Virus genome (UHGV): UHGV-0071094
Length of the DNA: 31,554 nucleotides
Source: a virus
Reading direction: 5' to 3' (one strand)
Below are positions 7,744 through 31,554 of this stretch, piece after piece (the stretch's first letter is position 1; each line of letters begins with the position of its first letter). The translations under genes and the position numbers were made by a program. Under the pieces are notes generated by a model. The model did no database searches. It worked only from the letters and a program-made list of their open reading frames with translations, and had not been told where the DNA came from.

Positions 7744-7812
7744 AATTACCTTTAATCCTATCATGTTATATTGGTAGGAAAAATTAGAACGTAATGATAT
7801 TGAGGTATAATC

Positions 7813-11009: not shown

Positions 11010-11011
11010 AA

Positions 11012-13345: not shown

Positions 13346-13520
13346 TGTGACCTCCTGATGATGGTATCTGCATTATCGAACTTACAATACCAACAGTTAT
13401 ACCAACAAAACAAGCTGGATGTCCGTATATCCCAACAGTCCTTGGTAGACCATGGTTAAAGTGTACTTCATTGAAATGATTGGGAAAAATAGACTTTGAT
13501 ATACTTCGGTAGACAGGGTT

Positions 13521-13536
13521 CTGGCGTCCCCTGCAG
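13521..13536 (-). other. Candidate prophage attR core (tRNA 3'-end-like sequence)
   Basis: Minus strand reads CTGCAGGGGACgCCA, resembling the acceptor-stem 3' end plus CCA of tRNA-Arg (argW as I recall it: ...CCTGCAGGGGACACCA); located between the excisionase and the next integrase, where an attR is expected. Confidence 0.4.
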
Positions 13537-13609
13537 ACATCTACTTGAGGCAGCAGGGGATTGATTAGAATGGTATTTTTTAGATGTGAGAAATATTTTA
13601 CCCGCTATT

Positions 13610-13810
13610 TTACCCATTGGCGCGGCTTAAGAGCTTATTTTTGAATTCACAATGGTCACGATATAACCATCTTGCTCGCCCGTGGATAACTTTGGCTTTA
13701 GGCAGGTCTCCGGACTTAATCCGGTCATAGATGAAGGTTTTACCGAAGCCAGTATCGGCCATGATGAATTTCAAATCAACCAGGGAATCAGGCTGTAGTT
13801 CGTGTTGCAT
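13610..13810 (-). CDS. torI: AlpA/TorI-family excisionase (winged-helix recombination directionality factor)
   Basis: 66-aa ORF (MQHELQPDSLVDLKFIMADTGFGKTFIYDRIKSGDLPKAKVIHGRARWLYRDH...) with AlpA-like HTH; position at the prophage end opposite the intS-like integrase matches the KplE1 layout. Gene symbol by analogy, not verified. Confidence 0.75.
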   Translation of the reverse strand: MQHELQPDSLVDLKFIMADTGFGKTFIYDRIKSGDLPKAKVIHGRARWLYRDHCEFKNKLLSRANG

Positions 13811-13828
13811 GAGTGCTATCTCCGAATA

Positions 13829-13844
13829 GGGAATCGAACCTGCA
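13829..13844 (-). other. tRNA T-arm-like 16-mer (TTGCAGGTTCGATTCC) immediately upstream of the excisionase gene
   Basis: Minus-strand sequence matches the T-stem/T-loop (GGTTCGATTCC) region of a tRNA and diverges where the acceptor 3' strand would begin. Confidence 0.45.
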
Positions 13845-13852
13845 AATCAGGC

Positions 13853-13876
13853 AAGAAAAAACCGCCATCAGGCGGC
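13853..13876 (-). terminator. Rho-independent terminator-like hairpin with U-run (minus strand)
   Basis: GCCGCC-TGAT-GGCGG stem-loop followed by TTTTTTC on the minus strand, overlapping the stop of the small ORF upstream. Confidence 0.4.
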
Positions 13877-14035
13877 TTGGTGTTCTTTCAGTTCTTCAAT
13901 TCGAATATTGGTTATGTCTGCATGTGCTATCTGCGCCCATATCATCCAGTGGTCATAGCAGTCATTGATGTTCTCTGCTTCGATAACTCTGTTGAATGGT
14001 TCTCCATTCCATTCACCTGTGACTCGGAAGTACAT
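13868..14035 (-). CDS. Small hypothetical phage protein (55 aa)
   Basis: Minus-strand ORF MYFRVTGEWNGEPFNRVIEAENINDCYDHWMIWAQIAHADITNIRIEELKEHQAA preceded by a GGAGA RBS; below the ORF-track size cut-off; the overlapping plus-strand ORF 13802..14050 is judged spurious. Confidence 0.35.
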   Translation of the reverse strand: MYFRVTGEWNGEPFNRVIEAENINDCYDHWMIWAQIAHADITNIRIEELKEHQAA

Positions 14036-14222
14036 TTATCATCTCCATAAAACAAAACTCGCCGTAGCGAGTTCAGATAAAAGAAATCCCCGCGAATGCG
14101 AGGATTGTTAGTTGCGCTCTGCTGCTGCCTTAGCCATTACCATATCCACCAAACTTCACCAGACATGATTCTCGCAATCACTATCATCACCAAAGTGATA
14201 ATCACAACTTTAACTGGCGGCA

Positions 14223-14951
14223 TCATTCACCATCCTGCTGCGGTGCTGCTGGCAGTGGCATCCAGTGGGTAATACTACCTGGATATAAACTCTTTGCTGG
14301 CCCCCAGTAGCCATCTGTATTAACACGCATAACCTCACAGCCATCAAAACCATCAGTTACAAGAACGTATTCATAAGGTTCCGGCATCCTTTCGCTTACC
14401 GGAATCCAACTATCCGGAGTTCCCGGAGAGTTGCCATTTACATCGAAGTTTGGCTCTGCGTCCTGAACCAGGAGGATGTAACCATTCTTGGCTGTATCAA
14501 GTTCTAACGCCTCGGTGACGGTGCCGAAATAGCGATTGCCTAAATCAGCATCACAAGTGCTTACATCAATGGAAACTTCCATGCCCTCGATTAATTCTGG
14601 CAAGTTGTAAGTTTGGCTTACAGGTTCGGCTTCCAGTTCTGCTATGCGCTTTTTTGCTGCTTCCAGCTCGCCAAGCAGCGCCAAGACGGTAGCCGGATTG
14701 GCTGCGGCGATGAATTCAGCATTGGCCTGCTGTTCCATTTGGAAATCTTCATCGAAACCGCTTTCAGGATGCGCTCCTTCAATTCTGCAAATGGGAATAT
14801 ATCCAGCAGCCTCGCGATGAATTAGCGCATCATCACAATCAAATCGGCTCTCTCCATATTCGAGCGACCACTCACCACACGTTGCTTTTTCTGCCGCTTC
14901 ACGCAGTGCCTGGTAATTAATTTCGCTCACTGTTTGCCTCCTTTGCGCCAC
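14223..14951 (-). CDS. Ead/Ea22-like protein with C-terminal DUF551 domain
   Basis: 242-aa ORF; C-terminal ...[35 protein letters not shown]...THWMPLP resembles DUF551; typical lambdoid early-left accessory gene. Confidence 0.7.
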
Positions 14952-15550
14952 ATCGCATTCAGATATTTGTTGTCATTAACAGAACCGAAACTCTTTCTTT
15001 TAAGCAATTCCTCTCTCGATGGCATTGGCTTTACGCGTTGGCGAATAATCATTTCTGCCGGAAGAATGCCGGGATTGTATGCAAGTCCTCTCATGGTAAA
15101 TTCCTCAGTCATTACTGATAGCGCCATAGCGTGAGCGGTAATTACGCAGGCGCGGGTCAATTTCAGGGAAGTGGGTATATCTGCATCTTTCGCATCATCA
15201 ATGCCGAACAAACCATTGAGGCAATACTTGCGTGCATAAGAGCTTGTAGCTCCAGTAACTTGTGCAGAATCCATTCCTTTCTTGCTTTCTTCCTCTCGTG
15301 CAAGAGCGGTTGCCGTATGACTGTTTTCGCCATCGGTAATAGTTGCCGTGGCTTTCACATAATACCGATCACCAATCAACACAACTTCATCGCTGATTGA
15401 TAAAAACAGGCCATTCAGTAGCGGCTTAACGCCTTCAAGAATATCTTCGCAGCTTCTGTATTTATATTTACCGAATGAGTTGTACTGATTTTTTGGCGCG
15501 TTCAGATTCTCCTGAATGGCAGCCAGTCTTGCGTAAAATTCTTTGCTCAT
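14927..15550 (-). CDS. erf: ERF-family single-strand annealing protein (P22 Erf-like)
   Basis: Translation from the internal Met ([45 protein letters not shown]...) closely resembles phage P22 Erf as I recall it; the ORF-track start 15580 probably over-extends. Confidence 0.8.
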
Positions 15551-15651
15551 ATGATTGTTCTCAGAATGGACATGGCCCAAGGAAATAACGCTGATTTAAT
15601 ACTTCGACTCGGGACAAGTTAAGGCATACCCGCATTCCTTCGCGGTCACCA

Positions 15652-15810
15652 TTATGGCGATACCAGAGAGCTTTCTGCGTGTACATGCGTCTCTGTAACT
15701 TGCTCTCCTTCACTGTGGTTGCAAGTGACATGAATATCTCCTTCGTTACCGATTAATTCTTTCATCTGACGAATGAATTCTTCGTCTGACCAGTTATCTG
15801 TAAAACTCAT
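15652..15810 (-). CDS. Small phage protein (52 aa) in the Arf/early-left position
   Basis: Minus-strand ORF MSFTDNWSDEEFIRQMKELIGNEGDIHVTCNHSEGEQVTETHVHAESSLVSP; its ATG overlaps the stop of the upstream small gene (ATGA). Confidence 0.4.
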   Translation of the reverse strand: MSFTDNWSDEEFIRQMKELIGNEGDIHVTCNHSEGEQVTETHVHAESSLVSP

Positions 15811-15959
15811 TTCCTGCGATACCATGGAAGGTTGATAGCTAATTTCATCTCTTTATTTGCTTCAAGCCACATTTTGGAATCACCAATAAATCTGGCTATT
15901 ACTGCTTTGTTTTGTGCTGCTCGAAGCATCTGGTGATTGATGGCTATTTCATTGCGCAT
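15807..15959 (-). CDS. Kil-like small protein (50 aa)
   Basis: Minus-strand ORF MRNEIAINHQMLRAAQNKAVIARFIGDSKMWLEANKEMKLAINLPWYRRK; the ...RFIGDSKMW... segment resembles lambdoid Kil as recalled; assignment tentative. Confidence 0.35.
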   Translation of the reverse strand: MRNEIAINHQMLRAAQNKAVIARFIGDSKMWLEANKEMKLAINLPWYRRK

Positions 15960-16078
15960 AACGCCTCCAGTTGTTTCTTTGCTGCTCTGATTAATTGTTT
16001 AACTCGGCGTGATAATTCAGATTCGTGCGGGTAGAAAGCGGACATGACGCCGCTACCCGCGAGCTGAAAGTGCATCAT
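15944..16078 (-). CDS. cIII-like small protein (44 aa)
   Basis: Internal start of ORF 15944..16183 gives MMHFQLAGSGVMSAFYPHESELSRRVKQLIRAAKKQLEALCAMK, resembling lambda CIII (..AG....ESxL.R....L); AAGGAG RBS upstream. Confidence 0.4.
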   Translation of the reverse strand: MMHFQLAGSGVMSAFYPHESELSRRVKQLIRAAKKQLEALCAMK

Positions 16079-16619
16079 GGGTAACTCCTTATATTTGATT
16101 GCATAACGAAAACGCCTCGAGTGAAGCGTTATTGGTATGCGGTAAAGCCGATGGAAGAATGGTTTCTTCTCGCAGGTAAGCATGATGCTTGCTGTTCTGG
16201 AATACGGAATCGAAGACGATGAAATGGCTGAATTGACTAAGCGGCTTGCCGATTACCTGACAAAAGAAAAAGCCCCGAAGAACGGCGAATTCTTCGAGGC
16301 CTGATGTAGAAAGACTGGATCAATCCACAGGAGTAATTATGACAAAACGTCGTAAGAAATACCAGGAAAAAGAAGAGATTCGACACCCTGATTCACCTGA
16401 GGGATTAGTGGTAGCCGCAGCAAATAACAGGGCGTTCGCAGAGCGCCTTGTTGGTGTTTACAGACTAGCCAAAGCAGGAGTGAAACATGGGCGTCGTTAA
16501 GTTAGCTGATTACAGGCATATCCAAACCGTATGCCTGTTGGTAGTGGTAACCAGTTGGCGAAGTGGAACGGTTGGAATTACTTCCACCGAAAGGAACCTT
16601 GCGATAACGGGAGCGAATA

Positions 16620-18038
16620 ATGCCGATTCAGCAACTTCCGCTTATGAAAGGTGTCGGCAAAGACTTTCGAAACGCCGACTATATCGACTATCTGCCAGTG
16701 AATATGTTGGCTACACCCAAAGAAATACTCAACAGCAGCGGATATCTTCGTTCATTCCCGGGCATTGCCAAACGCTCTGATGTGAACGGTGCATCTCGCG
16801 GCGTCGAGTACAACATGGCGCAGAATGCTGTTTATCGTGTGTGTGGTGGCAAGCTGTACAAAGGAGAAAGTGAAGTCGGTGACGTTGCCGGAAGTGGTCG
16901 TGTATCAATGGCGCATGGTCGGACATCACAGGCAGTAGGCGTTAATGGTCAACTGGTCGAGTATCGCTATGATGGCACGGTTAAAACCGTCTCAAACTGG
17001 CCTACAGACAGCGGATTCACGCAGTATGAGTTAGGTTCAGTCCGCGACATTACGCGCTTACGTGGGCGTTATGCGTGGTCAAAAGACGGCACTGATTCAT
17101 GGTTTATCACTGACCTTGAAGACGAATCGCATCCTGACCGCTACAGCGCACAATATCGTGCTGAGTCTCAGCCTGACGGCATCATCGGCATCGGAACATG
17201 GCGAGACTTCATCGTCTGCTTTGGTTCATCGACGATTGAATATTTCTCCCTGACTGGCGCAACAACTGTTGGTGCTGCTTTGTATGTCGCACAGCCATCA
17301 CTGATGGTGCAGAAAGGCATTGCCGGAACTTACTGCAAAACGCCATTCGCTGATTCGTATGCGTTTATCAGCAATCCGGCAACGGGTGCGCCGTCTGTAT
17401 ACATCATCGGATCCGGTCAGGTGTCACCAATCGCCAGCGCGAGCATTGAGAAAATTCTCCGCTCCTACACTGCTGATGAACTGGCTGATGGTGTGATGGA
17501 GTCTCTGCGATTTGATGCGCATGAGCTGCTGATTATCCATCTTCCGCGCCATGTTCTGGTGTACGACGCATCTTCAAGCGCCAATGGTCCGCAATGGTGT
17601 GTACTGAAAACAGGCCTGTATGACGATGTGTATCGCGCTATCGACTTCATTTACGAAGGCAATCAGATAACGTGCGGCGATAAGCTGGAATCCGTGACCG
17701 GGAAATTGCAATTCGATATCAGCAGCCAGTACGACAAGCAACAGGAACATCTGCTGTTTACTCCACTCTTCAAAGCAGATAACGCCAGAGTTTTCGACCT
17801 TGAGGTTGAATCGTCAACTGGCGTTGCGCAGTACGCTGACCGCCTGTTCCTCTCTGCAACCACTGACGGCATCAATTACGGGCGTGAGCAGATGATTGAG
17901 CAGAATGAACCGTTCGTTTACGACAAACGCGTTTTGTGGAAGAAAGTAGGGCGCATCAGGAAAAACATTGGCTTCAAATTGCGCGTTATCACTAAGTCAC
18001 CTGTCACTCTGTCTGGCTGCCAGATAAGGATTGAGTAA
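16620..18038 (+). CDS. P22 gp10-like tail/head-completion protein
   Basis: 472-aa ORF; same length as P22 gp10 and N-terminus [46 protein letters not shown] closely resembles it. Confidence 0.85.
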
Positions 18039-18886
18039 TGGCTGATTCGAATCTTAATGTGCCGGTAATCATTCAGGCTACACGACTCGACACATCAGTC
18101 CTTCCGCGTAATATCTTCTCGCAGTCGTATCTGCTTTACGTTATCGCACAGGGAACTGATGTTGGTAACGTGGCTAACAAAGCCAACGAGGCCGGACAGG
18201 GCGCTTATGATGCACAGGTCAGGAACGATGAGCAGGATGTGATTCTCGCTGACCATGAGCAGCGAATTTCTGCTGCGGAAGCAACGCTTGTTAATCATGA
18301 GGAGCGAATCAGCCAGGCAGAATCAACTCTTCAGGAACATGAAACGCGAATCGCTCAGAATGAAAGCGATATTGCGTCGCTTGATACCAGAGTTCAGTCG
18401 CTGGAATCGCAGGTTTCAGACCATGAATCGCGCATTGATGCTCTGGAGTATGCCACTACTCGCAAGAAGTCAGAGGTTGTTTACTCTGGCGTATCAGTAA
18501 CCATTCCGACAGCGCCGACCAACCTTGTTAGCCTGCTGAAAACGCTCACGCCGTCATCAGGATCGTTGGCACCATTCTTCGACACCGTTAACAACAAGAT
18601 GGTTGTGTTCAACGAGAACAAAACCTTGTTCTTCAAGCTGTCGATCGTCGGGACGTGGCCCAGCGGAACCGCCAACAGGTCAATGCAGCTAACATTTTCC
18701 GGTTCTGTTCCTGACACACTGGTAAGCAGTCGCAACTCGGCGACAACAACCGACAACATCCTGTTAGCTACGTTCTTCAGCGTGGATAAAGACGGCTTTC
18801 TTGCCACAAATGGCAGTACGTTAACCATTCAGTCAAATGGTGCGGCGTTTACTGCCACAACCATCAAGATAATCGCGGAGCAGTGA
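18038..18886 (+). CDS. Tail needle protein (gp26-like) with C-terminal knob, Sf6-type
   Basis: ATG overlaps the gp10 stop (TAATG); N-terminus [36 protein letters not shown] conserved with P22 gp26; heptad-like coiled-coil middle; 282 aa with a ~130-aa C-terminal extension, as in Sf6-type needles. Confidence 0.8.
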
Positions 18887-19341
18887 TGATTCAGTTCAAA
18901 CAAACGCGAAACATCGACCTGATCGAAGCAGTCGGAAATCACCCTGACATTATCGCCGGTAGCAACAACGGTGATGGATACGACTACAAGCCTGAATGCC
19001 GTTACTTTGAGGTTAACGTGCACGGTCAGTTTGGCGGCATTGTTTACTATCAGGAAATTCAGCCGCTTACATTCGATTGCCACGCCATGTACCTGCCAGA
19101 GGTTCGCGGCTTCAGCAAGGAAATCGGGATGGCGTTCTGGCAATACATTCTGACTAACACCACCGTTCAGTGCGTCACATCGTTCGCCGCACGCAAATTC
19201 CGCCACGGGCAGATTTACTGCGCAATGATTGGCCTTAAGCGTGTCGGAACCATCAAGAAATACTTCAAAGGCGTGGATGACGTGACTTTTTACAGCGCCA
19301 CACGCGAAGAACTAATCGACTTCCTGAATCACGGGAGATAG
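18883..19341 (+). CDS. P22 gp14-like virion assembly protein
   Basis: 152-aa ORF in the conserved position between the needle and gp7 genes; overlapping start/stop. Confidence 0.65.
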
Positions 19342-19343
19342 CC

Positions 19344-20036
19344 ATGTTATATGCATTTAAGCTGGGCAGAAAACTGCGCGGCGAGGAACCTTGGTGCCCT
19401 GAAAAAGGCGGGAAAGGTGGTAGCTCTGATAAAAGCGCAAAGTATGCAGCAGAAGCCCAGAAGTATGCCGCAGACCTGCAAAATCAGCAGTGGCAGACGA
19501 TCATGAAAAACCTTGCTCCGTTCACGCCTCTTGCGGAGCAGTATGTTAACCAGCTTCAGAACCTTTCCAGTTTAGAAGGTCAGGGGCAGGCACTTAATCA
19601 GTATTACAACTCTCAGCAGTATAAAGACCTTGCAGGTCAGGCTCGTTACCAGAGTCTTGCTGCTGCGGAGGCTACGGGAGGACTTGGTTCGACAGCCACA
19701 AGCAATCAACTGGCTACGATCGCGCCGACTCTCGGTCAGTCGTGGTTATCAAACCAGATGAGCAATTACAACAATCTGGCAAACGTTGGGCTTGGTGCTC
19801 TGCAAGGTCAGGCAAACGCCGGGCAGACGTACGCCAACAACATGAGCAGCATTGCACAGCAAAGCGCAGCTCTTGCCGCTGCTAATGCCAACAAACCATC
19901 AAGTCTTCAGACAGCAATTAGTGGCGGAACGTCTGGTGCGATTGCCGGTGCAGGTCTTGCCAGCCTTTTGGGAACATCAACACCTTGGGGCGCTGGCATT
20001 GGTGCTGGTATCGGATTGCTTGGCTCGTTGTTTTAA
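19344..20036 (+). CDS. Ejection protein, P22 gp7-like
   Basis: 230-aa ORF, Gln/Ala/Gly-rich with a glycine-rich hydrophobic C-terminus; gene order and size match P22 gene 7. Confidence 0.75.
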   Translation: MLYAFKLGRKLRGEEPWCPEKGGKGGSSDKSAKYAAEAQKYAADLQNQQWQTIMKNLAPFTPLAEQYVNQLQNLSSLEGQGQALNQYYNSQQYKDLAGQARYQSLAAAEATGGLGSTATSNQLATIAPTLGQSWLSNQMSNYNNLANVGLGALQGQANAGQTYANNMSSIAQQSAALAAANANKPSSLQTAISGGTSGAIAGAGLASLLGTSTPWGAGIGAGIGLLGSLF

Positions 20037-20045
20037 GGGGTAATC

Positions 20046-23290: not shown

Positions 23291-23314
23291 CGTATGGGGA
23301 ATTGGATTCAATCG

Positions 23315-23704
23315 TTAACATTTTCTTTTTACTTTTCCAACAAAAGCTTTGGTTGAATCCATATTCCCATAACCAGAAATGGTTTTCGACATTAAAACTG
23401 TTCCATTAGGATGTATTACCCATGAGTCGATAACTCGTTGAGTTTCGCCATTCGCGCCGATTCCAATGATGGAGTTTTTAGACAATGCTTTGTAAGCCAT
23501 GCCGCCCGCATCCGTCCCAGAATATGTGATACTGGCATCTTCACCGTTTGTCTTAATGATGAATGTTCCACTAAAACCATCTTCTTCCGGTTGAAAATTA
23601 TTTCGTTCTGAATAGCTTATTCCGTGCATATCTCCAACGACCCAGCACTCTGCTGAGACAGAAAACGAGAAGACAAGGAAAGCCATTGCTATAATCAATT
23701 TCAT
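23315..23704 (-). CDS. Hypothetical secreted protein (129 aa), moron in the sieA position
   Basis: N-terminal signal peptide MKLIIAMAFLVFSFSVSA; no recognised domain; same strand as and downstream of mnt. Confidence 0.55.
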   Translation of the reverse strand: MKLIIAMAFLVFSFSVSAECWVVGDMHGISYSERNNFQPEEDGFSGTFIIKTNGEDASITYSGTDAGGMAYKALSKNSIIGIGANGETQRVIDSWVIHPNGTVLMSKTISGYGNMDSTKAFVGKVKRKC

Positions 23705-23719
23705 TTTAAGCCCTTATTG

Positions 23720-24055
23720 TTATTGATTCTTTTTGCACGGAAATGTTTTTCCTACTGCTAGGGCGGTTAGTATAACTGCACTCTCATTTCTTGATTCTGG
23801 GTTTTTGTTTAGATATTTCTCAACGATATCGGTGTATTGATACATGTCAACGCCATCAGGAGGACATAGAGAACCAATTAGTATCAATGAGTCAGTTACT
23901 CCGCGCAAATATCCAGTAATGTAAAGCGATGAAAAATCATCACCCTTTTTACCTTGTTGAATGTTGTAAAGAAGGTCATTACCCGTTTGAAGCTCGCGCA
24001 GCTCAGCACTGGAAGAAGAGACAACTGCTAACAAGAACAGTGATAGAAATCTCAT
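23720..24055 (-). CDS. Hypothetical secreted protein (111 aa), moron co-transcribed with mnt
   Basis: Signal peptide MRFLSLFLLAVVSSSSA; two Cys (possible disulfide); start overlaps the mnt stop. Confidence 0.55.
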   Translation of the reverse strand: MRFLSLFLLAVVSSSSAELRELQTGNDLLYNIQQGKKGDDFSSLYITGYLRGVTDSLILIGSLCPPDGVDMYQYTDIVEKYLNKNPESRNESAVILTALAVGKTFPCKKNQ

Positions 24056-24306
24056 TTCAAATCCTTTTCATAAATCTTTTTAAGTGTCTCAAACACTATA
24101 GCCTTGAACTGCTCAGCCTGCTGATCAGCCAAGCGTTCAGCTTCGTCGCGATATCCTGTAATCGGTGATGGTTTTGATAGTGCATCCTGAACGATTTGTA
24201 ATAACTCAGAGTTCATTGACCTTCCGTTAGCCTCGGCTCTTAATTTCAATTTTTCTCTTACTTCCAAAGGCATACGGAAGTTAAAGTGCGGATCATCTCT
24301 AGCCAT
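24052..24306 (-). CDS. mnt: Mnt repressor (Arc/MetJ ribbon-helix-helix family)
   Basis: 84-aa ORF MARDDPHFNFRMP.EVREKLK.RAEANGRSMNSELLQIVQDALSKPSP.TGYR closely resembles P22 Mnt; divergent from arc, with operators between. Confidence 0.85.
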   Translation of the reverse strand: MARDDPHFNFRMPLEVREKLKLRAEANGRSMNSELLQIVQDALSKPSPITGYRDEAERLADQQAEQFKAIVFETLKKIYEKDLK

Positions 24307-24328
24307 GCCATCACTCCAAGTTAGTGTA

Positions 24329-24380
24329 TTGACATGATAGAAGCACTCTACTATATTCTCAATAGGTCCACCGTGGACCT
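24329..24380. promoter_or_regulatory. immI control region: Pant-like promoter with Arc operator and Mnt operator
   Basis: TTGACA (24329-24334) and TATATT (24352-24357) with 17-bp spacing; the 21-bp ATGATAGAAGCACTCTACTAT (24334-24354) matches the P22 arc operator as recalled; the 17-bp palindrome AGGTCCACCGTGGACCT (24364-24380) matches the Mnt operator. Confidence 0.7.
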
Positions 24381-24396
24381 ATATTGTGAGGTGAAC

Positions 24397-24558
24397 ATGA
24401 AAGGAATGAGCAAAATGCCACAGTTCAATTTGCGGTGGCCTAAAGAAGTATTGGATTTGGTACGCAAGGTGGCGGAAGAAAATGGTCGGTCTGTTAATTC
24501 TGAGATTTATCAGCGAGTAATGGAAAGCTTTAAGAAGGAAGGGCGCATTGGTGCGTAA
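24397..24558 (+). CDS. arc: Arc repressor
   Basis: Internal start of ORF 24334..24558 gives a 53-aa protein MKGMSKMPQFNLRWP.EVLDLVRKVAEENGRSVNSEIYQRVMESFKKEGRIGA resembling P22 Arc; GAGGTGA RBS. Confidence 0.85.
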   Translation: MKGMSKMPQFNLRWPKEVLDLVRKVAEENGRSVNSEIYQRVMESFKKEGRIGA

Positions 24559-24626
24559 AGTTGAAGCCCCAACTGCTGTAACAGTCAGGGCTTCGGCATC
24601 AACAAATCGGATTAGGAAATATTGAC

Positions 24627-25505
24627 ATGAAAAGTATAGCAAAGGCACAAAACGATTTCACCATCTTCAAATTCGGCGACAGTGAAATCCGCGTCATCAA
24701 CAAGTGCGGTGAGCCGTGGTTTGTAGCTAAAGATGTTTGTGATGCTTTAGATTTGACTAACTCACGCAAGGCGCTTACTGCACTTGATGACGATGAAAAG
24801 GGAGTAACTTTAAGTTACACCCTTGGTGGTGAGCAGAATCTAAGCATTGTGAGCGAATCAGGTATGTATACATTGGTTCTGCGCTGCCGCGATGCAGTCA
24901 ATAAAGGTTCAGTCCCGCACAAATTCCGCAAGTGGGTAACAGCAGAAGTTCTGCCTTCAATTCGCAAACATGGCGAGTATGTAAAAGGAAAGAAAACCAC
25001 TGTTGAGGAAAGAACACCGCTACGCGATGCAGTAAACATGCTGGTAGGAAAGAAAGGACTTCGCTATGACGATGCATACAATATGGTTCATCAGCGTTTT
25101 GGTATTGACAGCATTGATGAACTTTCAATTGAACAAATCCCGCTGGCCGTAGAGTACATCCACAGGGTAGTGCTTGAAGGTGAGTTCATTGGCAAACAAG
25201 AGAAGAAAACCAACGAGCTTTCTGCAAAAGAAGCAAACAGCCTTGTATGGTTATGGGATTATGCCAACCGCTCACAGGCATTATTCCGCGAACTGTATCC
25301 GGCGCTAAAACAAATTCAATCGAACTATTCCGGCAGATGCTACGACTACGGTCATGAATTCTCGTATGTTATCGGAATGGCGAGAGACGTTTTAATAAAC
25401 CACACACGAGATGTTGATATTAATGAGCCAGACGGACCAACGAATCTTTCCGCATGGATGAGACTTAAGAATAAAGAATTGCCTCATTCAGTACATAACT
25501 ACTGA
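24627..25505 (+). CDS. ant: Antirepressor Ant (Bro-N plus Ant C-terminal domain)
   Basis: 292-aa ORF downstream of arc; N-terminal ...[28 protein letters not shown]... is Bro-N/KilA-N-like; position and size as P22 ant. Confidence 0.8.
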
Positions 25506-25521
25506 CAGATAACCAACGCAA

Positions 25522-25548
25522 CGACCCAGCTTCGGCTGGGTTTTTTTA
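25522..25548 (+). terminator. Rho-independent terminator after ant
   Basis: ACCCAGC-TTCG-GCTGGGT hairpin followed by TTTTTTTAT. Confidence 0.55.
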
Positions 25549-25605
25549 TGCCCAAAATTCACCGTAGCTACGCTGCGGCGATTCCTTGTATCTGGAGCAA
25601 ATTAA

Positions 25606-27567
25606 ATGACAGACATTACAGCCAATGTGATCGTATCGATGCCTTCGCAACTCTTCACTATGGCTCGTTCTTTTAAAGCTGTAGCCAATGGCAAAATTTA
25701 TATCGGAAAAATTGACACTGACCCGGTAAATCCAGAAAACCAGATTCAGGTTTATGTAGAGAATGAAGACGGCTCTCACGTTCCTGTTTCACAACCAATC
25801 ATCATTAACGCTGCCGGATATCCGGTATATAACGGACAGATTGCCAAGTTCGTAACTGTGCAAGGCCACTCTATGGCTGTTTATGATGCGTACGGTGCGC
25901 AGCAGTTCTATTTTCCGAATGTGCTGAAGTACGACCCTGATCAATTGGAGCAAAGATTGTCTTCGCCGGATGGAGCCAGTGACATTGGTGTTCAGCCAAG
26001 GGGGAATCTTGCACAGACAATTCTATTTGTAACCCCTGAGCAGTTCGGTGCTATTGGCGATGGGATAGCCCATCCATTATCTGAGCGCTATGCGACCCTT
26101 GCCGCAGCGCAGGCCGTGTATCCTTTCGTGACATCTCTGACGCAGACCATCGACTGGGCTGCATGCCAGGCGGCTGAGAACTATGCGCGAGGTAAAACAG
26201 CGGTAAGATGCCCTTTCTACGCCAAGTATCATCTTGGCAACAACTACCTAAAACTAGGTGAAAAAGCAAAATGGTATGGCAATGATATGCCTAGCCTGGA
26301 CCGTGATTGCACCATGTTTATCAGGGAGGGTAGCTCAGGTGGATTTGGGCAAGATTGTATTGTTAGGGTGGCAACAGCTGCAGAAGTAGGCAGCTCTGAT
26401 GAATTCGTCCGCGGCATAGTATTCAAAGGGTTCCGTCTCACAAGGAATCGCCCAAGAAGGTATAACAGTAAATATGACAGTACGATAGGGTTCCACGCCG
26501 ACCACGCGCTCGGATTGCAAGTAAATATCAGCGTTAACGGATGCGAATATGGCTTCCTTGGTTATGTATGCTGGAATGTTTCAGGGACGGTAAGGTTTGA
26601 TTCTTGCCATAAAAGCCTTTGGTTAGACCCAGCTACGGCTACCCCTGAATACACTCCAGTAGCAGGTGCTGTAATGACGGCTGTTAACCTGAGGGTAGAG
26701 GTCGATGCTTGCGTTTATGGGCCAGTTGTTCGTCGAGCAAAATACGGCAAATTATCAGGATGGGTTGAAGGAATGCTCATTAACCCAACCGTATACCCTA
26801 TTTATGACACTGGAAACGAAACTGCTATTGCACTTACCACGTATAACTGTGACAGCTTTGATGTTACAGAGCTTGGTATAGAAGCCTGGCAGGGCGCCCA
26901 TGTCTATAACTATGGTGGAAGCATATCTGTCAACTTAAGTTGGACTCAGGATTATTACCTGACAAACACAACTGGTAAGCATGGTCCTTACCATGCAATG
27001 TCAGTTCTTATGGGCAATTCTGAGCTGTTTACTCTACCAGCAACAGCTAATGCCCAATATTATAATTTAAATGTTGGTTGCCTTGTAATTCGCAATCTCA
27101 GCGGAGACTGGAGTAATACAACTAATTTCGGCAGCGTATACTTTGCCACGACAGATGCGACATCTCGTACTGTGTTCGAGAACTCTCATGTGTACTTTGG
27201 CAGTAACGTAGCACGATTTGCCCCTGGATTCCTGGGTAATTTCGACACGGTTGGCGGGAGATATATCATCGACGCCATAACCCCAAATGGATATACAAAG
27301 GTAGGCCCTAACTATTTTGTTAAAACATCATGGGGATTAAAGGCGATAAACGGAGGAGATGGAAGGGTATCTATCACCGTTGGCACAGACACACCAACAA
27401 ATCTCAAGTTGCATGACGTGTCTGCATACGTCATTACAAGCACAACATCTCAACCCCTCCCAATAGCTGTAGTGTCGACATCAGATACTGAAATTTCTTT
27501 CCAGACAGCAGTAACTACAACAGCATTCAGCATCAACTGGAAAGCTTACGTAAGCTGGTCTGCTTGA
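25606..27567 (+). CDS. Tailspike protein with P22-type N-terminal head-binding domain and divergent receptor-binding domain
   Basis: 653-aa ORF; first ~115 aa ([11 protein letters not shown]...[35 protein letters not shown]...[24 protein letters not shown]) match the conserved P22 gp9 N-terminus; the remainder is unrelated to P22 gp9 as recalled. Confidence 0.85.
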
Positions 27568-27598
27568 AAAAAGCCCCTAATGGGGCTTTCCTTTTAAG
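27567..27598. terminator. Bidirectional terminator-like hairpin between tailspike and gtr operon
   Basis: AGCCCC-TAAT-GGGGCT stem-loop flanked by A-run and T-run; overlaps the last codons of the converging minus-strand gene. Confidence 0.5.
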
Positions 27599-28911
27599 AT
27601 ATAAACCAAAGATGATATTGACAAGAATACGACCATATCAAAAGAGAATGATAGTCCAAACAGATGCTTTGATAGATCCCGGTAACCTTCTCCTATAAAT
27701 GATATGTAAAATTGAGAAATACCAAAAAGAGAAACTAGAACCACCGGAACGGACATACTCCTTGTCTTTCTGCTAACGAGAAACGCTACCATTATCAAAA
27801 TCATGACAAACATACGAAGGTTTCCGAAAAATCTATCTTTAAGATGCGTCAACTGAGTTGACCATGTGATTCTGTCGTCGACTATGACCTTTATAGTCTT
27901 TGCTACATGAATATAATCAGTTACCAGATTATCTTTCACTACATCATCAAAAGGGAGCATAAAAATGATACTTGGATGCTTGATGTATTCACGTACAGAA
28001 TCAATAAAACTTACGTTCTTATTGTTTTCATAGCATGACTTACCAAGCGTAGAGCGATGCGATCCTTTTTCCTTGTCTAACTGCCCACCCCAAGCATCAA
28101 TTCCAATGCACTTTTCATCAACCCCGCCTGGAAGATCTATATCATTCATCTTTTCGTAAGCGTAAACTCCGTAGTAGGCAGAGTGATACTTATTGAAATT
28201 AGTGGCGTCAGATGAATTCATTACAAAAATAACACATGCAACCTGAGAAATGGCAAGGCCAGCTAAAGCTAATTTCCTGTAGTTGTAAAAATAGAACACA
28301 AATGGCATTGACAGCAACGGTATGTAAAAAAATTGACTTTTGCTCCCGCCGATAACAAAAGCAGATATCACAAACAGTGTGGTGGTAAGTAATGTGTTTT
28401 CCCTTCTTACAAGGCACATAGCCATTAATGGAAGGAAGACCAACACAACCTGCTCCTGGTAAAATGAAGGGAAGAATGCAATGTTAGATGAGGAGCACAA
28501 GAAAATAATCAATATTAATGCAATAGCATAATCCACATATGATATATGCCCTCTATGCAACTTAACATACAGAGAGAAAAGAATTGCAATATAAATCGAC
28601 TTTAATGCTGCTGATAAGATTCTAGCATCAAGTTGGTCTGTAAATAATTTAAAAATACCACCTATAAAGTACAGGATATAAGAGTATGTGCTCATGTAAG
28701 TAAACTTACTAATTCCCCAAAACTCATCATAAAGATGATACTTTAGGTCCATGCTATGCTGGAATGACGGTATTGGCGGCATGAATGGGAATATTGCGCG
28801 ATGGAAATCACCCGTGTTAATCATGTACACGTTTTTTGTAGTAGCAATGACAATTATTGAAAATACAATTAAAATCCATGCTTCTAAACGGACACCAAGA
28901 AATCTATTCAT
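27577..28911 (-). CDS. Type-specific O-antigen glucosyltransferase (GtrC/GtrS-like polytopic membrane protein)
   Basis: 444-aa highly hydrophobic ORF directly downstream of and overlapping gtrB; conserved third position of gtr clusters. Confidence 0.75.
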
Positions 28912-29834
28912 TTCAAATCCCTGTTTTTCTTCAGAATAAATCTTGGACGCTGCTTGGACTCAACATATATCCTGCCAATGTACTCACCAAGAACGCCAAT
29001 GCCAATCAATTGAACCCCGCCAAGGAACAGAATAGAGACAAGCAGGGATGGATATCCACGCACAGCATTGCCGAAGGCCAGTGTGTCGATAATCATCCAA
29101 GCACCGTACAGAAACGCCACTCCAGCTACGAACAGGCCAATGTAAGTCCACATGCGCAACGGGAAAGTAGAGAAGCTTGTGATCCCCTCAAGTGCCAGGT
29201 TCCACAGTTTCCATCCATTAAATTTAGTACTGCCTGCCACTCGTTCTGCGCGTGCATACTCGACAACATCTGTGCGACCGCCAACCCAACTCAGCACACC
29301 TTTCATAAAAAGGTTGCGCTCTGGCATAAGCTTAATGTTTTCGACAACTTCACGGCTCATTAACCGGAAATCGCCGACATTCTCCTCGATCTTTGGGTTG
29401 CTTATTTTGTTGTGCAATTTATAAAACCACTCTGCCGTTTTGCGTTTCAGTCGTCCGTCAGTTGAGCGATCAGTTCGCTTAGCCAGCACCATATCAGAGC
29501 CTGCCTGCCACTTTTCAATCAGATGAGGAATAACCTCAATCGGGTCTTGCAGGTCAACATCAATAGGAATAACGGCATCACCTGTTGCATGGTCTAACCC
29601 TGCAAACAATGCTGGTTCTTTACCAAAGTTTCGTGTAAATGACAGCGGAACAATTAGAGGATCTGAAACGGACAGAGCGTTAATGATTGACTCCGTAGCG
29701 TCTTTGCTACCATCATTTATAAAAACAATTTCCACTTCATATGGCTTCAACTCTTCGAATTCACGTACCGTTTTATAAAAAATTGGTATCGCTTCCTCTT
29801 CATTGAAGACAGGAACGACCAGAGATATCTTCAT
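28908..29834 (-). CDS. gtrB: Bactoprenol glucosyltransferase GtrB (GT2 family)
   Basis: 308-aa [19 protein letters not shown]...FINDGSKD...DVDLQDP... (GT-A DxD), C-terminal transmembrane helices; overlaps gtrA and the type-specific gene. Confidence 0.85.
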
Positions 29835-30193
29835 TTCGCATCCCTAAATACAATGAACTTTGAATAGACGAAACCGCACACCAGGCTGATGGCGGAGAAT
29901 GTAACAAGAGTGACAATTGGAGGAAGTGAACATCTATCAGCAGCCCATCCAACAGTAGCGCTCAGTGTTCCCATGAACCCGACATATAACATGTAGCGCA
30001 TCGTTGTAGTCGTTGCCTTGAATGTGAATTTTGCATTCGCGAAGAAGCTAAAGCTCACAGCCACAACGAAACCTGCGAAGTTTGCAAGAGCCTGGTTTGT
30101 ATGCGCTGCATAGATACATACACCAAAAACCACCCAGTGTATAAGTGTGTTTAGCACACCAATCGAGGTGTACTTTGCAAATAGCTTTAACAT
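29831..30193 (-). CDS. gtrA: GtrA-family flippase-like small membrane protein
   Basis: 120-aa ORF with four hydrophobic segments, immediately upstream of gtrB. Confidence 0.8.
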
Positions 30194-30346
30194 TTCTTCT
30201 ATCAGCTAATAATCAAAGGCATGAAGTCTATCATCCAAGTCTCAATCGATCGATGACTTGCTGTGGTTGATGAAACAAAACTTAGACACACAAGGCTTTG
30301 AGCCTTGTTGCAAGGCTTTGTGATATTCGATAGTTGTTAAGGCGGA

Positions 30347-31504
30347 TCACTCCACCTTTTCATCAATCCAGTCCGCCCACCATTGCATCATTTCTCTGCG
30401 CTTATCGAGATACTGAGCATGGTTGTAAATCCCGCGCACAGATCCGCCGTTGGCATGTGCCAGTTGCACTTCAATGGCGTCGGCAGGCCATTCGTGCTCG
30501 TTCATAATCGTGCTGAATTCATGCCTGAATCCGTGACCGCTTTCCAGACCCTCATAGCCGATTCGTTTGATCACAAGTAATACCGCGTTCTCGCAGATTG
30601 GCTTCTTCTTATCGTTACGCCCGGCAAAAACAAACTCTGATACTGGTTTGGTGATGGAGCTTAACGTAGTGAGAAGTTCAACCACCTGGTCCGACATCGG
30701 GACCACATGAATCTTGCGTCCCTTCATCACACTGGCGTCGATAGTGATAATCCTGTTTTCAAAATCGACGTTATTCCATAGCATAGAACGAAGCTCTTTC
30801 GTTCTTAGGGCTGTGTAGCGTAAAACTTTGGTCGCAATGAGCGATACGATACTACCTGAAAATGTTGCCAGTGCTTTATTGAATGCCGGGATCTGGTCTG
30901 CAGGAAGAAACGGGAAGTTCTTCTTGCGGTATCCCTTCATGGCGTCAGCAAGGTCAGGTGCCGGGTTATATTTAGCCCTGCCGGTGACAATAGCGTAACG
31001 GAAAACCTCGCCGCATCTTCTGCGTGCTTTGTTGGCTCGCTCCATTGCACCGCGATCTTCAAATCTGCGGATTACTTCCAGCAGTTGCATCGGCTCAATA
31101 TCCTGAATTTCAAGGCCGCCGATGATAGGTAAAATGTCGTCATCAAACATTTTTGCAAGTTCAGTTGCATAGCCTACTGACCAGACTTGCTTCTTGTGCT
31201 CGTACCATTCCTTGTAAATCGCACTAAAGGAATTGTTGTTAGACGAAGCCTTTTTCGCTTTTACCGGATCGATGCCAACCGAGATGTCTTTCCTCGCAGT
31301 CCATGCTTTATCCCTTGCCTCCTGCAAAGTCATAAGCGGATATTTTCCGACGGTCAGGATTTTCTCCTTACCGTCAATCTTGTAGCGAAGCTGCCATACC
31401 TTTTTCCCGGATACAGGGACATAAAGGTACAGGCCATTACCATCGAGAAGTCGGTATGGTTTTTCTTTCGGCTTTGCTGCTTCAATCTGCTTAACGGTGA
31501 GCAT
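30347..31504 (-). CDS. intS: Prophage tyrosine integrase (IntS/KplE1-like, P4-type)
   Basis: 385-aa from the ATG at 31504 (the ORF track extends to a GTG at 31540); DUF4102-like N-terminus and C-terminal HGFRH...LAH...Y...MMQWWADW motifs; followed by gtrA-gtrB-gtr(type) as in the argW-intS-gtrABS locus of E. coli K-12 as recalled. Confidence 0.85.
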   Translation of the reverse strand: MLTVKQIEAAKPKEKPYRLLDGNGLYLYVPVSGKKVWQLRYKIDGKEKILTVGKYPLMTLQEARDKAWTARKDISVGIDPVKAKKASSNNNSFSAIYKEWYEHKKQVWSVGYATELAKMFDDDILPIIGGLEIQDIEPMQLLEVIRRFEDRGAMERANKARRRCGEVFRYAIVTGRAKYNPAPDLADAMKGYRKKNFPFLPADQIPAFNKALATFSGSIVSLIATKVLRYTALRTKELRSMLWNNVDFENRIITIDASVMKGRKIHVVPMSDQVVELLTTLSSITKPVSEFVFAGRNDKKKPICENAVLLVIKRIGYEGLESGHGFRHEFSTIMNEHEWPADAIEVQLAHANGGSVRGIYNHAQYLDKRREMMQWWADWIDEKVE

Positions 31505-31554
31505 GGGTAAAAATCCGGTGGGTAAAATTATTTTATCCACTTTTTACCCGTCAT

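What the first reader, a model, noticed from the sequence alone, without database searches (positions are those of the whole stretch)
13521..31554. P22-like prophage reduced to tail/ejection, immI, conversion and recombination modules
Gene content and order match the P22/Sf6 late-right end (gp10-needle-gp14-gp7-gp20-gp16, mnt/arc/ant, tailspike, gtr) and the early-left end (cIII-like, Kil-like, erf, Ea22-like, excisionase). Everything expected between them is absent: primary repressor and cro, replication, nin, lysis, terminase, portal, scaffold, coat. The element cannot produce virions alone but keeps the integrase/excisionase pair, Erf recombinase, antirepressor and O-antigen modification genes, functions that can be selected in a domesticated remnant or can recombine with incoming P22-like phages.
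Basis: partly seen in the sequence, partly recalled or inferred. Interest (0 to 1): 0.5.

Follow-up and report, generated by a model that had tools for sequence, protein, structure and literature searches.

The report
Head-less P22-like prophage remnant
This is an E. coli P22/Sf6-type prophage at the argW tRNA site that lost its repressor, replication, lysis and head genes through three internal deletions. That is ordinary prophage decay, except that the largest deletion ends at a base-pair-exact spot in head-completion gene 4 where about one in nine related E. coli prophages is cut too.

Summary
Window 13521-31554 is a P22/Sf6-like prophage at argW. Its att core starts at 13521, torI (xis) lies at the left end and intS at the right end. 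It keeps the early-left genes, then gp10, gp26, gp14, gp7, gp20 and gp16, then mnt/arc/ant, tailspike, gtrCBA and intS.

Compared with an intact 40.6-kb relative (STEC379), three deletions removed about 21 kb:
- D1 at 15178-15183 truncates Erf and fuses it to DUF2737.
- D2 at 16141-16150 removes ral, N, c2, cro and the 5' part of cII.
- D3 at 16519-16520 removes everything from O codon 12 to gene 4 nucleotide 399.

A 380-bp cII'-orf-O' scrap and the last 102 nt of gene 4 remain.

The same three junctions occur at 99.95% identity or more in contigs from at least three other samples, so this is not a mis-assembly. The retained late genes are full length, but PL, PR, Q and the late promoter are all gone.

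Verdict: a recently decayed, non-inducible cryptic prophage, akin to KplE1. The gtr operon, immI and IntS/TorI are the parts most likely still working.

One unexpected result: the D3 right endpoint is a polar, TA-anchored hotspot. In complete E. coli genomes, 27 of 246 prophages with this gene-4 allele are cut there, with at least eight different left partners. No endpoint was seen elsewhere in gene 4. The mechanism is unknown.

The parts
13521..13536 (.). TorI-side att core (hybrid site), sequence CTGGCGTCCCCTGCAG. This is the left boundary of the prophage.
   Evidence: It matches 14 of 16 bases of the Sf6 attP core and the argW 3' end. The phage arm to its right is 98% identical to Sf6.
13610..13810 (-). 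torI / excisionase (recombination directionality factor), 66 aa
   Evidence: The protein is identical to the annotated TorI of KD602 and STEC379. It also hits the PHROG excisionase family.
13868..14035 (-). Small ea-region ORF (phrog_676). It carries the 6-SNP patch at 13915-13976.
14223..14930 (-). Ead/Ea22-like protein with a DUF551 domain
   Evidence: Pfam E=1.4e-23 and 2.2e-12. It is colinear with the STEC379 Ea22-like gene apart from a 166-bp insert.
14927..15550 (-). Fusion ORF: Erf residues 1-124, then an out-of-frame abc2 3' end, then the whole DUF2737 protein. It is the product of deletion D1.
   Evidence: Pfam ERF matches residues 15-134 (profile positions 1-125 of 153) and DUF2737 matches residues 163-213.
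15178..15183 (.). D1 junction (erf C-terminus, a hypothetical gene and most of abc2 lost; at least 0.86 kb). Ordinary 3-6-nt microhomology.
15561..15810 (-). Two small early-left ORFs (phrog_1723 and phrog_2123)
   Evidence: gene calls
15807..15959 (-). kil
   Evidence: Pfam Lambda_Kil, E=6e-19
15944..16078 (-). cIII
   Evidence: Pfam cIII, E=2e-30
16141..16150 (.). D2 junction. It joins the region upstream of cIII to mid-cII, and removes ral, N, c2, cro and the 5' part of cII. The microhomology is GCCG within GGTAA(A)GCCG.
16146..16304 (+). cII remnant (C-terminal part only)
   Evidence: Pfam Phage_CII, profile positions 53-91 of 91. DNA is 99% identical to intact cII genes.
16339..16500 (+). 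Small ORF that lies between cII and the replication gene (phrog_1331; homolog of Sf6 gene 42)
16487..16520 (+). First roughly 11 codons of the replication-initiator (O/gp18-like) gene
   Evidence: Identical to the start of the O gene in strain A3019 up to CAGGCA|TA
16519..16520 (.). D3 junction. This TA is shared by O and by gene 4 nucleotides 400-401. It is the recurrent hotspot endpoint.
16519..16620 (+). Gene 4 (head-tail adaptor) remnant: last 102 nt, i.e. codons 134-166 plus the stop codon
16620..23290 (+). Intact tail-hub and ejection genes: gp10, gp26 (needle with Sf6-type knob), gp14, gp7, gp20, gp16
   Evidence: Pfam and PHROGs. All are full length, have no internal stops, and are 97-99% identical in protein to STEC379.
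23315..24055 (-). Two accessory (moron-type) genes in the position of P22 sieA: a phrog_2651 protein (129 aa) and a Rap1a/Tai-family protein (111 aa)
24052..25505 (.). immI region: mnt(-), arc(+) and ant(+), with overlapping divergent promoter-like sites at 24329-24362
   Evidence: Pfam Arc, Mnt, Bro-N and P22_AR_C. These are the best promoter matches in the region. Mnt and Arc are 100% identical to STEC379.
25606..27567 (+). Tailspike. It has a P22/Sf6 head-binding domain (residues 1-115) and a receptor-binding domain with no close solved relative.
27577..30193 (-). O-antigen glucosylation operon gtrC-like / gtrB / gtrA
   Evidence: Pfam GT2 and GtrA, phrog_22908, and the annotation of relatives as yfdH/yfdG
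30347..31504 (-). intS integrase (385 aa). attL and argW lie just beyond the window.
   Evidence: Pfam integrase domains. 98.4% protein identity to the annotated IntS of STEC379. In STEC379, argW lies 112 bp past the point that corresponds to the window end.

Best explanation
Window 13521 to the window end (about 18.2 kb) is a cryptic, non-inducible remnant of a roughly 40-kb P22/Sf6-like (Lederbergvirus-type) temperate phage integrated at the argW tRNA gene of E. coli. It sits in tandem with an older genomic island.

Three internal deletions disabled it:
- D1 (microhomology-mediated) truncated Erf and removed abc2.
- D2 (microhomology-mediated) removed ral, N, c2, cro and half of cII.
- D3 joined codon 12 of the replication initiator to nucleotide 400 of gene 4. 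This removed replication, nin, Q, lysis, terminase, portal, scaffold, coat and most of gene 4.

Shown here: the gene content, the three junctions, and the intactness of the remaining ORFs.

Inferred:
- The element has no repressor, no PL or PR, no N, no Q and no late promoter. It therefore cannot be induced, replicate, lyse the cell or build heads.
- The tail/ejection cluster and the early-left genes are probably transcriptionally silent cargo.
- The units with their own promoters probably still work. These are gtrABC (O-antigen glucosylation, i.e. serotype conversion and receptor masking), the Mnt/Arc/Ant immunity-I switch with Mnt holding Pant off, the two accessory genes beside it, and self-regulated intS.
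- With TorI and IntS it could still excise at a low rate, as KplE1 does.
- Its intact tailspike, gtr and ejection genes can be picked up by incoming P22-like phages through homologous recombination.
- The absence of any frameshift in 22 retained genes indicates recent decay rather than long-term domestication.
For: - Synteny and 92-98% DNA identity to the intact argW prophage of STEC379, with three gaps at defined positions.
- Family assignments for every retained gene.
- Truncated partners on both sides of every junction: Erf'/abc2', cII', O' and gp4'.
- The cII'-orf-O' scrap is 99% identical to the corresponding part of intact prophages.
- All late proteins are full length and 97-100% identical to those of the intact relative.
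- Between 14187 and 16946 on the + strand there is no promoter-like site. Two strong terminator-like hairpins lie upstream of cIII on the - strand, at 16270-16302 and 16111-16130. The best promoter matches are the divergent pair in immI.
- The same element, with all three junctions, occurs at 99.95-99.97% identity in the ENA contigs of ERZ918720 and ERZ27239535 and in an IMG/VR contig.
- The IntS/TorI/att module is organised as published for KplE1, HK620 and Sf6 (PMC2951348).
Against: - No expression or excision data exist. Silence of the late and early-left genes is inferred only from a consensus promoter/terminator scan.
- The TorI-side att core differs from the argW core at two positions, CTGCAGGGGACGCCAG versus CTGCAGGGGACACCAT, so excision competence is uncertain.
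- attL is not in the window.
- No intact parent more than 99% identical over the whole length was found among 5,426 complete E. coli genomes. The order and timing of the three deletions are therefore unknown.
- That all 22 retained genes are intact would also fit purifying selection.
Confidence: 0.88

Rival explanations
1. Assembly artefact: two contigs (the early-left arm and the late-right arm of one or two prophages) were wrongly joined at about 16.1-16.6 kb.
For: Prophages of this family are repeated in many E. coli genomes (median two matching places per genome). No complete E. coli genome carries the O'|gp4' junction.
Against: - Identical D1, D2 and D3 junctions are present in contigs of two ENA assemblies (33.3 kb and 25.7 kb), one Logan contig and one IMG/VR contig, from at least three different samples. 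All differ from the window by the same six SNPs.
- The shared sequence at the D3 junction is only 2 nt (TA), which is too short to mislead an assembler.
- Analogous junctions exist in finished genomes.
Confidence: 0.02
2. A functional, selected element rather than debris. It could be a satellite-like or domesticated 'tail and conversion cassette' that supplies tailspike, needle and ejection proteins, or immunity-I functions, to co-resident or incoming P22-like phages. Or it could be mobilised by them.
For: - All tail, ejection, immI, tailspike and gtr genes are intact.
- The element persists in several samples.
- Head-less P22-like elements ending at the same gene-4 position make up 11% of prophages with this gene-4 allele.
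Against: - There is no replication origin or initiator, no pac site or TerS, no repressor, no Q/qut, no late promoter and no promoter-like site upstream of gp10.
- Other elements with the same gene-4 endpoint have further lost gp7, gp26, gp20, gp16 or the tailspike (L215, L217). The tail module is therefore not maintained.
- The left partners vary from portal to ral, so there is no conserved architecture.
- PADLOC found nothing relevant in this part.
Confidence: 0.06
3. One complex rearrangement, or inheritance of an old junction, rather than three independent deletions. In particular, D3 could have been inherited from a common ancestor shared with the other gene-4-truncated prophages.
For: - F719 shares the gene-4 endpoint and is 99.5% identical to the window over 20.6-25.6 kb.
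- The O and ral left flanks match at 12 of 15 positions. This would allow F719's junction to derive from an O'|gp4' junction by a second deletion.
Against: - At least eight different left partners are known: two O alleles, ral, DnaB, the holin start, two TerS genes and portal.
- The first 250 bp to the right of the junction are no more similar between the window and F719 (94.8%) than between either one and the intact STEC379 (96.8-98.0%).
- Three right-flank haplotypes occur among the truncated elements, and each is also seen in intact alleles.
- D1 and D2 have ordinary, different microhomologies.
Confidence: 0.04

Closest known systems
KplE1 / CPS-53 defective prophage of E. coli K-12 (argW)
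   Same: - Same integration site.
- intS sits next to attL and torI next to attR, at opposite ends.
- gtrA/gtrB homologs (yfdG/yfdH) lie next to intS.
- No CI-type repressor, so it is not SOS-inducible.
- The TorI protein is the one annotated as TorI in the relatives.

   Different: - KplE1 is 10.2 kb and keeps replication-region and tail-fibre fragments, but not the P22 tail hub and ejection genes.
- This element is 18.2 kb and keeps gp10-gp16, immI and an intact tailspike.
- The KplE1 core repeats are identical 16-mers. Here the TorI-side core has two mismatches.
Intact P22-like phages and prophages: Shigella phage Sf6, HK620, P22, and the argW prophage of E. coli STEC379 (NZ_CP091024.1)
   Same: Gene order and 90-98% DNA identity in the att-xis arm, kil-cIII, gp10-gp16, the tailspike head-binding domain and int. 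The needle has an Sf6-type knob.
   Different: - It lacks about 21 kb: ral-N-c2-cro, replication, nin, Q, lysis, TerS, TerL, portal, scaffold, coat and gene 4 codons 1-133.
- Erf is truncated.
- The tailspike receptor domain and gtrC are a different allele from those of STEC379, Sf6 and F719.
Other gene-4-truncated P22-like prophages: E. coli F719, CUVET21-147, 2017.06.05CC, CUVET19-1942, ETEC4068, and IMG/VR UViG_2563366986_000002 and UViG_2547132281_000009
   Same: The right endpoint of the head-module deletion is identical (gene 4 nucleotide 400, TA). In every case the retained DNA starts TATCCAAACCG and runs into gp10.
   Different: The left partners differ (ral, DnaB, holin start, TerS, portal, a second O allele). 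So do the integration sites (F719 is at sbcB/dacD with another integrase and RecT) and the extent of further decay.
Deletion hotspots at replication-arrest or nick sites (terB; rolling-circle origins of M13 and pC194). Recalled from established literature, not retrieved here.
   Same: One endpoint is fixed to the base pair. The other is variable and lies at sites with very short similarity. Polarity is strict.
   Different: No Ter site, rolling-circle origin, nickase or arrest protein is known or detectable at gene 4 nucleotide 400. The similarity is one of pattern only.

Membership tests
P22-like (Lederbergvirus-type) prophage | Colinear tail-hub and ejection cluster gp10-gp26-gp14-gp7-gp20-gp16 | tested here: met
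   Pfam and PHROG hits in that order. 97.4% DNA identity over 9.4 kb to the STEC379 prophage.
P22-like (Lederbergvirus-type) prophage | Tailspike with the P22 gp9-type N-terminal head-binding domain | tested here: met
   PF09008, E=5e-67. Residues 1-115 match the Sf6 and P22 tailspike structures.
P22-like (Lederbergvirus-type) prophage | immI region (mnt, arc, ant) between gp16 and the tailspike | tested here: met
P22-like (Lederbergvirus-type) prophage | P22-type head module (TerS/TerL, portal, scaffold, coat, gp4) | tested here: not met
   Only the last 102 nt of gene 4 remain. The element is therefore a remnant of the family, not a complete member.
Inducible temperate lambdoid phage | CI/c2-type repressor, cro, the operators OL/OR, and N and Q antiterminators | tested here: not met
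   All are absent. Only the C-terminal 40 codons of cII remain.
Inducible temperate lambdoid phage | Replication initiator and helicase with origin, and a lysis cassette | tested here: not met
   Only about 11 codons of O remain. There is no holin, endolysin or Rz.
KplE1/HK620/Sf6-type recombination module at argW | IntS-family integrase transcribed towards attL, and a TorI-family directionality factor at the other end | tested here: met
   organisation as in PMC2951348
KplE1/HK620/Sf6-type recombination module at argW | Duplicated 16-nt core CTGCAGGGGACACCAT at both ends | tested here: inconclusive
   The TorI-side core matches 14 of 16 positions. The argW-side core lies outside the window.
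Phage satellite (PICI, cf-PICI, P4-like) | Own replication module plus genes or sites that hijack helper packaging (pac/cos, TerS, capsid-redirecting genes) and a helper-responsive repressor | tested here: not met
   None was detected by Pfam, PHROGs or synteny.
Serotype-converting gtr cassette | gtrA (GtrA-family flippase), gtrB (GT2 bactoprenol glucosyltransferase) and a type-specific gtrC, next to int/att | tested here: met
   PF04138 and PF00535. The 444-aa third gene hits phrog_22908 and is allele-specific. Activity was not tested.

The most novel reading that the evidence does not exclude
The D3 endpoint is not a random break. Gene 4 nucleotide 400 (GGT|TA|TCCAAACC) of this E. coli P22-like allele may be a site-specific, strictly polar DNA break, nick or arrest point. 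It would repeatedly delete the head module leftwards and rejoin at any TA.

The pattern observed:
- 27 of 246 complete genomes with this allele keep only the DNA to the right of the site, and none keep only the left.
- No other endpoint was seen inside gene 4.
- There are at least eight different left partners, from 3.6 to about 20 kb away.
- All 7 partners that have an intact reference carry TA at the break.

If an enzyme or a protein barrier causes this, P22-like prophages in E. coli are inactivated by a dedicated, recurrent pathway that leaves the tail and conversion genes behind. Candidate causes are a nicking homing endonuclease, a transposase-type enzyme that cuts single-stranded DNA (HUH/Y1 type), a defence nuclease, or a tightly bound protein. 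The site is also an 8-of-9 match to a DnaA box.
Probability: 0.4. Interest if true: 0.65.

Novelty: new member of a known kind. Interest (0 to 1): 0.42.

Why it matters
The element itself is one more cryptic prophage. It matters mainly for three practical reasons:
- It probably still modifies the O antigen.
- It stores an intact tailspike, needle and ejection module that incoming P22-like phages can capture by recombination (compare PMC3945230).
- It is listed in IMG/VR as a roughly 19-kb 'viral genome', although it cannot make virus particles.

The wider point is the hotspot. Roughly one in nine E. coli prophages with this gene-4 allele has lost its head genes through a deletion with the same base-pair-exact, one-sided, TA-joined endpoint. 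Prophage decay is usually treated as random. A deterministic break point would be a concrete, testable handle on how temperate phages are disarmed, and it would hint at an unrecognised nuclease or barrier acting on P22-like DNA.

Tried and rejected
- **Mis-assembly:** rejected. The same junctions occur in independent assemblies.
- **Source genome or identical junction elsewhere:** none found for the O'|gp4' junction in 5,426 complete E. coli genomes, in the GTDB species representatives, or in the JGI metagenome contigs.
- **A looser pattern on GTDB:** it returned only chance 17-mer matches in unrelated taxa and was uninformative. L010, L013 and L221 from IMG/VR are likewise chance or unrelated matches.
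- **Shared descent of the window and F719 junctions:** considered because the O and ral flanks match at 12 of 15 positions. It is not favoured once six more left partners appeared and the right flank proved no closer than it is to intact alleles.
- **Transposon-like element with a second inverted end:** there is no inverted or direct copy of the gene-4 site in the window.
- **Hairpin-induced stalling:** only a 5-bp stem, CGGTT/AACCG, with z about -2 over 61 nt and not significant over 121 nt.
- **CRISPR self-targeting:** the sequence does offer an AAG PAM with a nick position 6-8 nt into the protospacer. However, no spacer-sized match to the 121-nt probe exists in any of the 5,426 genomes; the weakest record covers 49%.
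- **DNA-invertase (gix-like) site:** TTATCCAAA resembles a gix half-site as I recall it, but the crossover position does not fit an invertase. Dropped.
- **Same hotspot in the Salmonella P22 allele (TAC codon):** one IMG/VR scan found only an intact divergent allele, so this is uninformative.
- **Motif around the left partners:** nothing beyond TA and a weak G-N-T-TA-N-CC bias.
- **Phase-variation signature upstream of gtrA:** only one GATC cluster was seen, so no claim is made.
- **Literature:** four searches found nothing on a gene-4 deletion hotspot.

Full report
**What is in the window**

The 31.5-kb window has two parts.

Positions 1-13,500 are AT-rich (32-42% G+C). They carry a genomic island:
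- the end of hxsC, plus hxsA;
- a TIGR04141 protein;
- two ParB-like proteins;
- a large serine recombinase;
- an AbiL defence pair;
- a P4-type tyrosine integrase.

The island is found, nearly identical, next to P22-like prophages in 42 complete E. coli genomes.

From 13,521 to the window end the DNA is 42-52% G+C and is P22/Sf6-like. The phage collection gives 552 matching records. The best are Escherichia phage N7, HF4s and Shigella phage Sf6, at 94-95% identity over 41-47% of the query.

**Boundaries**

The finding's start coordinate, 13521, is exactly the first base of the att core, CTGGCGTCCCCTGCAG. The Sf6 attP core is ATGGTGTCCCCTGCAG, which is the reverse complement of the argW 3' end. 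From the core rightwards the window is 98% identical to the Sf6 P' arm and xis region.

At the right end, intS (30347-31504, minus strand) is 98.4% identical in protein to the annotated IntS of E. coli STEC379. In STEC379 the tRNA-Arg gene lies 112 bp past the position that corresponds to the window end.

The layout is therefore: island, att, torI, early-left genes, late genes, gtr, intS, then attL and argW off-window. This is the KplE1/HK620/Sf6 organisation, with the integrase and the directionality factor at opposite ends (PMC2951348). The TorI protein is identical to the one annotated as TorI in KD602 and STEC379.

**Gene content**

- TorI, Ead/Ea22+DUF551, an ERF-domain ORF, Kil and cIII;
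- gp10, the needle with an Sf6-type knob, gp14, gp7, gp20 and gp16;
- two accessory genes (phrog_2651 and a Rap1a/Tai-family protein);
- Mnt, Arc and Ant;
- a tailspike with the P22 head-binding domain;
- a type-specific GtrC-like protein, GtrB and GtrA;
- IntS.

The tailspike receptor-binding domain has no close solved relative.

**How it differs from an intact phage**

STEC379 (NZ_CP091024.1) carries a complete 40.6-kb relative at argW, with all modules. Pairwise BLAST against it and inspection of the junctions show three deletions.

- **D1 (window 15178-15183).** It joins the 3' end of abc2 to erf codon 124. The resulting 207-aa ORF consists of Erf residues 1-124, then 28 residues of out-of-frame abc2 and spacer, then the complete DUF2737 protein. 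The Erf C-terminal 77 residues, one hypothetical gene and most of abc2 are gone.
- **D2 (16141-16150).** It joins the region just upstream of cIII to the middle of cII, at a GCCG microhomology inside GGTAA(A)GCCG. It removes ral, N, c2, cro and the 5' half of cII.
- **D3 (16519-16520).** It joins codon 12 of the replication initiator (...CAGGCA|TA) to nucleotide 400 of gene 4 (TA|TCCAAACC...). It removes replication, nin, Q, lysis, terminase, portal, scaffold, coat and gene 4 codons 1-133.

Between D2 and D3 a 380-bp scrap survives. It holds cII codons 53-91, the small phrog_1331 ORF and the start of O, and it is 99% identical to the same stretch of intact prophages.

**Is it real?**

The fusion protein made by D1 was looked up by exact sequence. 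It is encoded on six contigs.
- A 33.3-kb contig from ERZ918720, a 25.7-kb contig from ERZ27239535 and a Logan contig all carry D1, D2 and D3. They are 99.95-99.97% identical to the window.
- An IMG/VR contig, UViG_3300028995_000073, also carries all three junctions.
- The two ENA contigs differ from the window by the same six SNPs, clustered at 13915-13976. That looks like a small conversion patch.

A mis-assembly is excluded.

**What probably still works**

All retained late and immI proteins are full length, have no internal stops, and are 97-100% identical to those of the intact STEC379 prophage.

The element has nevertheless lost PL, PR, N, Q and the late promoter. The consensus scan shows:
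- no promoter-like site on the + strand between 14187 and 16946;
- two strong terminator-like hairpins on the minus strand upstream of cIII, at 16270-16302 (in the cII 3' end) and 16111-16130;
- the best promoter matches are the overlapping divergent pair in immI (24329-24357 on + and 24362-24334 on -).

From this I infer four things, none of which was tested here:
- The tail/ejection and early-left clusters are silent.
- gtrABC, mnt/arc/ant, the two accessory genes and intS remain expressible.
- Excision may still be possible, but the TorI-side core has two mismatches to the argW core.
- The lack of any secondary pseudogenisation points to recent decay.

Other prophages with the same kind of deletion have gone on to lose tail genes. 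That argues against a maintained 'tail cassette' function.

**The unexpected part: the D3 endpoint recurs**

E. coli F719 has a head-less P22-like element at a different locus (sbcB/dacD), with another integrase and RecT. Its junction is ral'|'gp4, with the same gene-4 endpoint.

A pattern scan of IMG/VR found two more elements. One has a portal::gp4' in-frame fusion. The other joins a second O allele to gp4' and still has c2, cro and cII.

A 121-nt probe centred on gene 4 nucleotide 400 was then run against the 5,426 complete E. coli genomes.
- It hit 246 records. Of these, 219 match the whole probe and 27 (11%) match only the right half.
- All seven sampled right-half hits start at probe positions 58-61.
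- Four of them were fetched. Their left partners are DnaB, the start of the holin gene, and two different TerS genes.

A control probe covering the 643 nt to the left of nucleotide 400 was also run.
- It hit exactly 219 records, and in every sampled row the match reaches the probe's right end.
- So there are 27 right-only and 0 left-only cases, and no other endpoint inside gene 4 was seen.

Junction alignment shows that every element retains gene 4 from TAT (nucleotides 400-402). For all seven left partners that have an intact reference, the partner reads TA at the break. The chance expectation for that is about (1/16)^7. Beyond TA there is only a weak G-N-T-TA-N-CC resemblance.

The right flanks fall into three haplotypes, and each is also present in intact alleles. 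The window and F719 are no closer to each other next to the junction than either is to intact STEC379. I therefore favour independent events at a hotspot over common descent.

**Mechanism of the hotspot: open**

The pattern is a fixed end, strict polarity and a 2-nt TA joint at variable sites 3.6 to about 20 kb away. From general knowledge, it resembles deletions anchored at nick or arrest sites, or one-ended transposase-type reactions. One consistent picture is a 3'-OH on the bottom strand ending ...GGATA-3' that re-primes at upstream TA(N)CC sites. That is inference only.

Checks made here:
- There is no second copy of the site.
- Only a weak 5-bp hairpin is present.
- No CRISPR spacer matches the region.
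- The 17-mer TATCCAAACCGTATGCC encodes YPNRMP and is conserved even in gene-4 alleles only 70% identical.
- TTATCCAAA is an 8-of-9 match to the DnaA-box consensus (my own observation, no functional evidence).
- No evidence either way was obtained for the Salmonella P22 allele.
- Literature searches found no description of this hotspot.

**Verdict**

Three corrections apply:
- It arose through three deletions, and remnants survive at the seam.
- Erf is broken.
- 'Domestication' is unsupported.

As an element it is a new member of a well-known kind, a cryptic lambdoid/P22-like prophage closest in concept to KplE1. The recurrent, polar, TA-anchored endpoint in gene 4 is the one feature a specialist would not expect. 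It is worth following up.

Noticed in passing
window 16519-16520 (gene 4 nt 400-401); also L001:10691, L009:7430, L011:6832, L214:9003, L215:9001, L216:9001, L217:9001: This is a base-pair-exact, one-sided deletion hotspot. In complete E. coli genomes, 27 of 246 records with this gene-4 allele keep only the DNA to the right of nucleotide 400, and none keep only the left. At least eight different left partners are known, and TA is present at the break in all 7 partners that have an intact reference. The mechanism is unknown.
   Followed up: partly
window 1-13500: A separate genomic island is integrated in tandem at argW. It carries the hxsC end and hxsA, a TIGR04141 protein, two ParB-like proteins, a large serine recombinase (4636-6192), degraded integrase fragments and a P4-type integrase (12083-13345). 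The same island flanks other P22-like prophages in 42 complete E. coli genomes.
   Followed up: partly
window 9624-11668: AbiL-type abortive-infection pair: AbiLi (AAA_21 ATPase, PADLOC E=3e-91) and AbiLii (RloB-like, E=3e-23). It lies directly next to the prophage.
   Followed up: partly
window 23315-24055: Two accessory genes occupy the position of P22 sieA, between gp16 and mnt. One is a phrog_2651 protein. The other is a Rap1a/Tai-family protein, a family known as type VI secretion amidase immunity proteins. Both are conserved in STEC379 and F719. Their role in a phage is unexplained.
   Followed up: no
window 13915-13976: The six SNPs separating the window from the two ENA contigs of this element that were checked base by base all fall within 62 bp of the small phrog_676 ORF. 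This looks like a short gene-conversion tract.
   Followed up: no
window 16519-16535; L219, L220, L223: The 17-mer TATCCAAACCGTATGCC (YPNRMP) is conserved exactly in gene-4 alleles that are otherwise only about 70% identical. TTATCCAAA is an 8-of-9 match to the DnaA-box consensus. It is unclear whether the conservation acts on the protein or on the DNA.
   Followed up: partly
L003 (E. coli KD602) 40429-43130; L009 4786-5940; L214 7425-8163: Other P22-like prophages at the same locus carry further internal deletions with truncated partners: helicase'|TerL, DnaB'|TerL' and N'|'replication gene. This prophage family appears to decay mainly by multiple internal deletions.
   Followed up: no
L217 10543-11076; L003 46222-46737; L215 5659-7109: Free-standing HNH/NUMOD4 homing-endonuclease-type genes are inserted at several places in related prophages: between gp10 and gp26, between scaffold and coat, and in the nin region. 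They are possible sources of site-specific breaks in prophages that lack them.
   Followed up: no
IMG/VR UViG_3300028995_000073 (L008/L134): This defective element is catalogued in IMG/VR as a 19.4-kb viral genome. In the list of the 80 closest gp10 relatives, about 20 contigs are only about 17-26 kb long. They may be fragments or defective elements; this was not checked.
   Followed up: no
window 16270-16302 and 16111-16130 (minus strand): Two strong terminator-like hairpins lie at the seam. One, with 14 pairs, is in the cII 3' end, the position of the oop terminator in lambda. The other is just upstream of cIII (tL-like). Together they should insulate the early-left genes.
   Followed up: no
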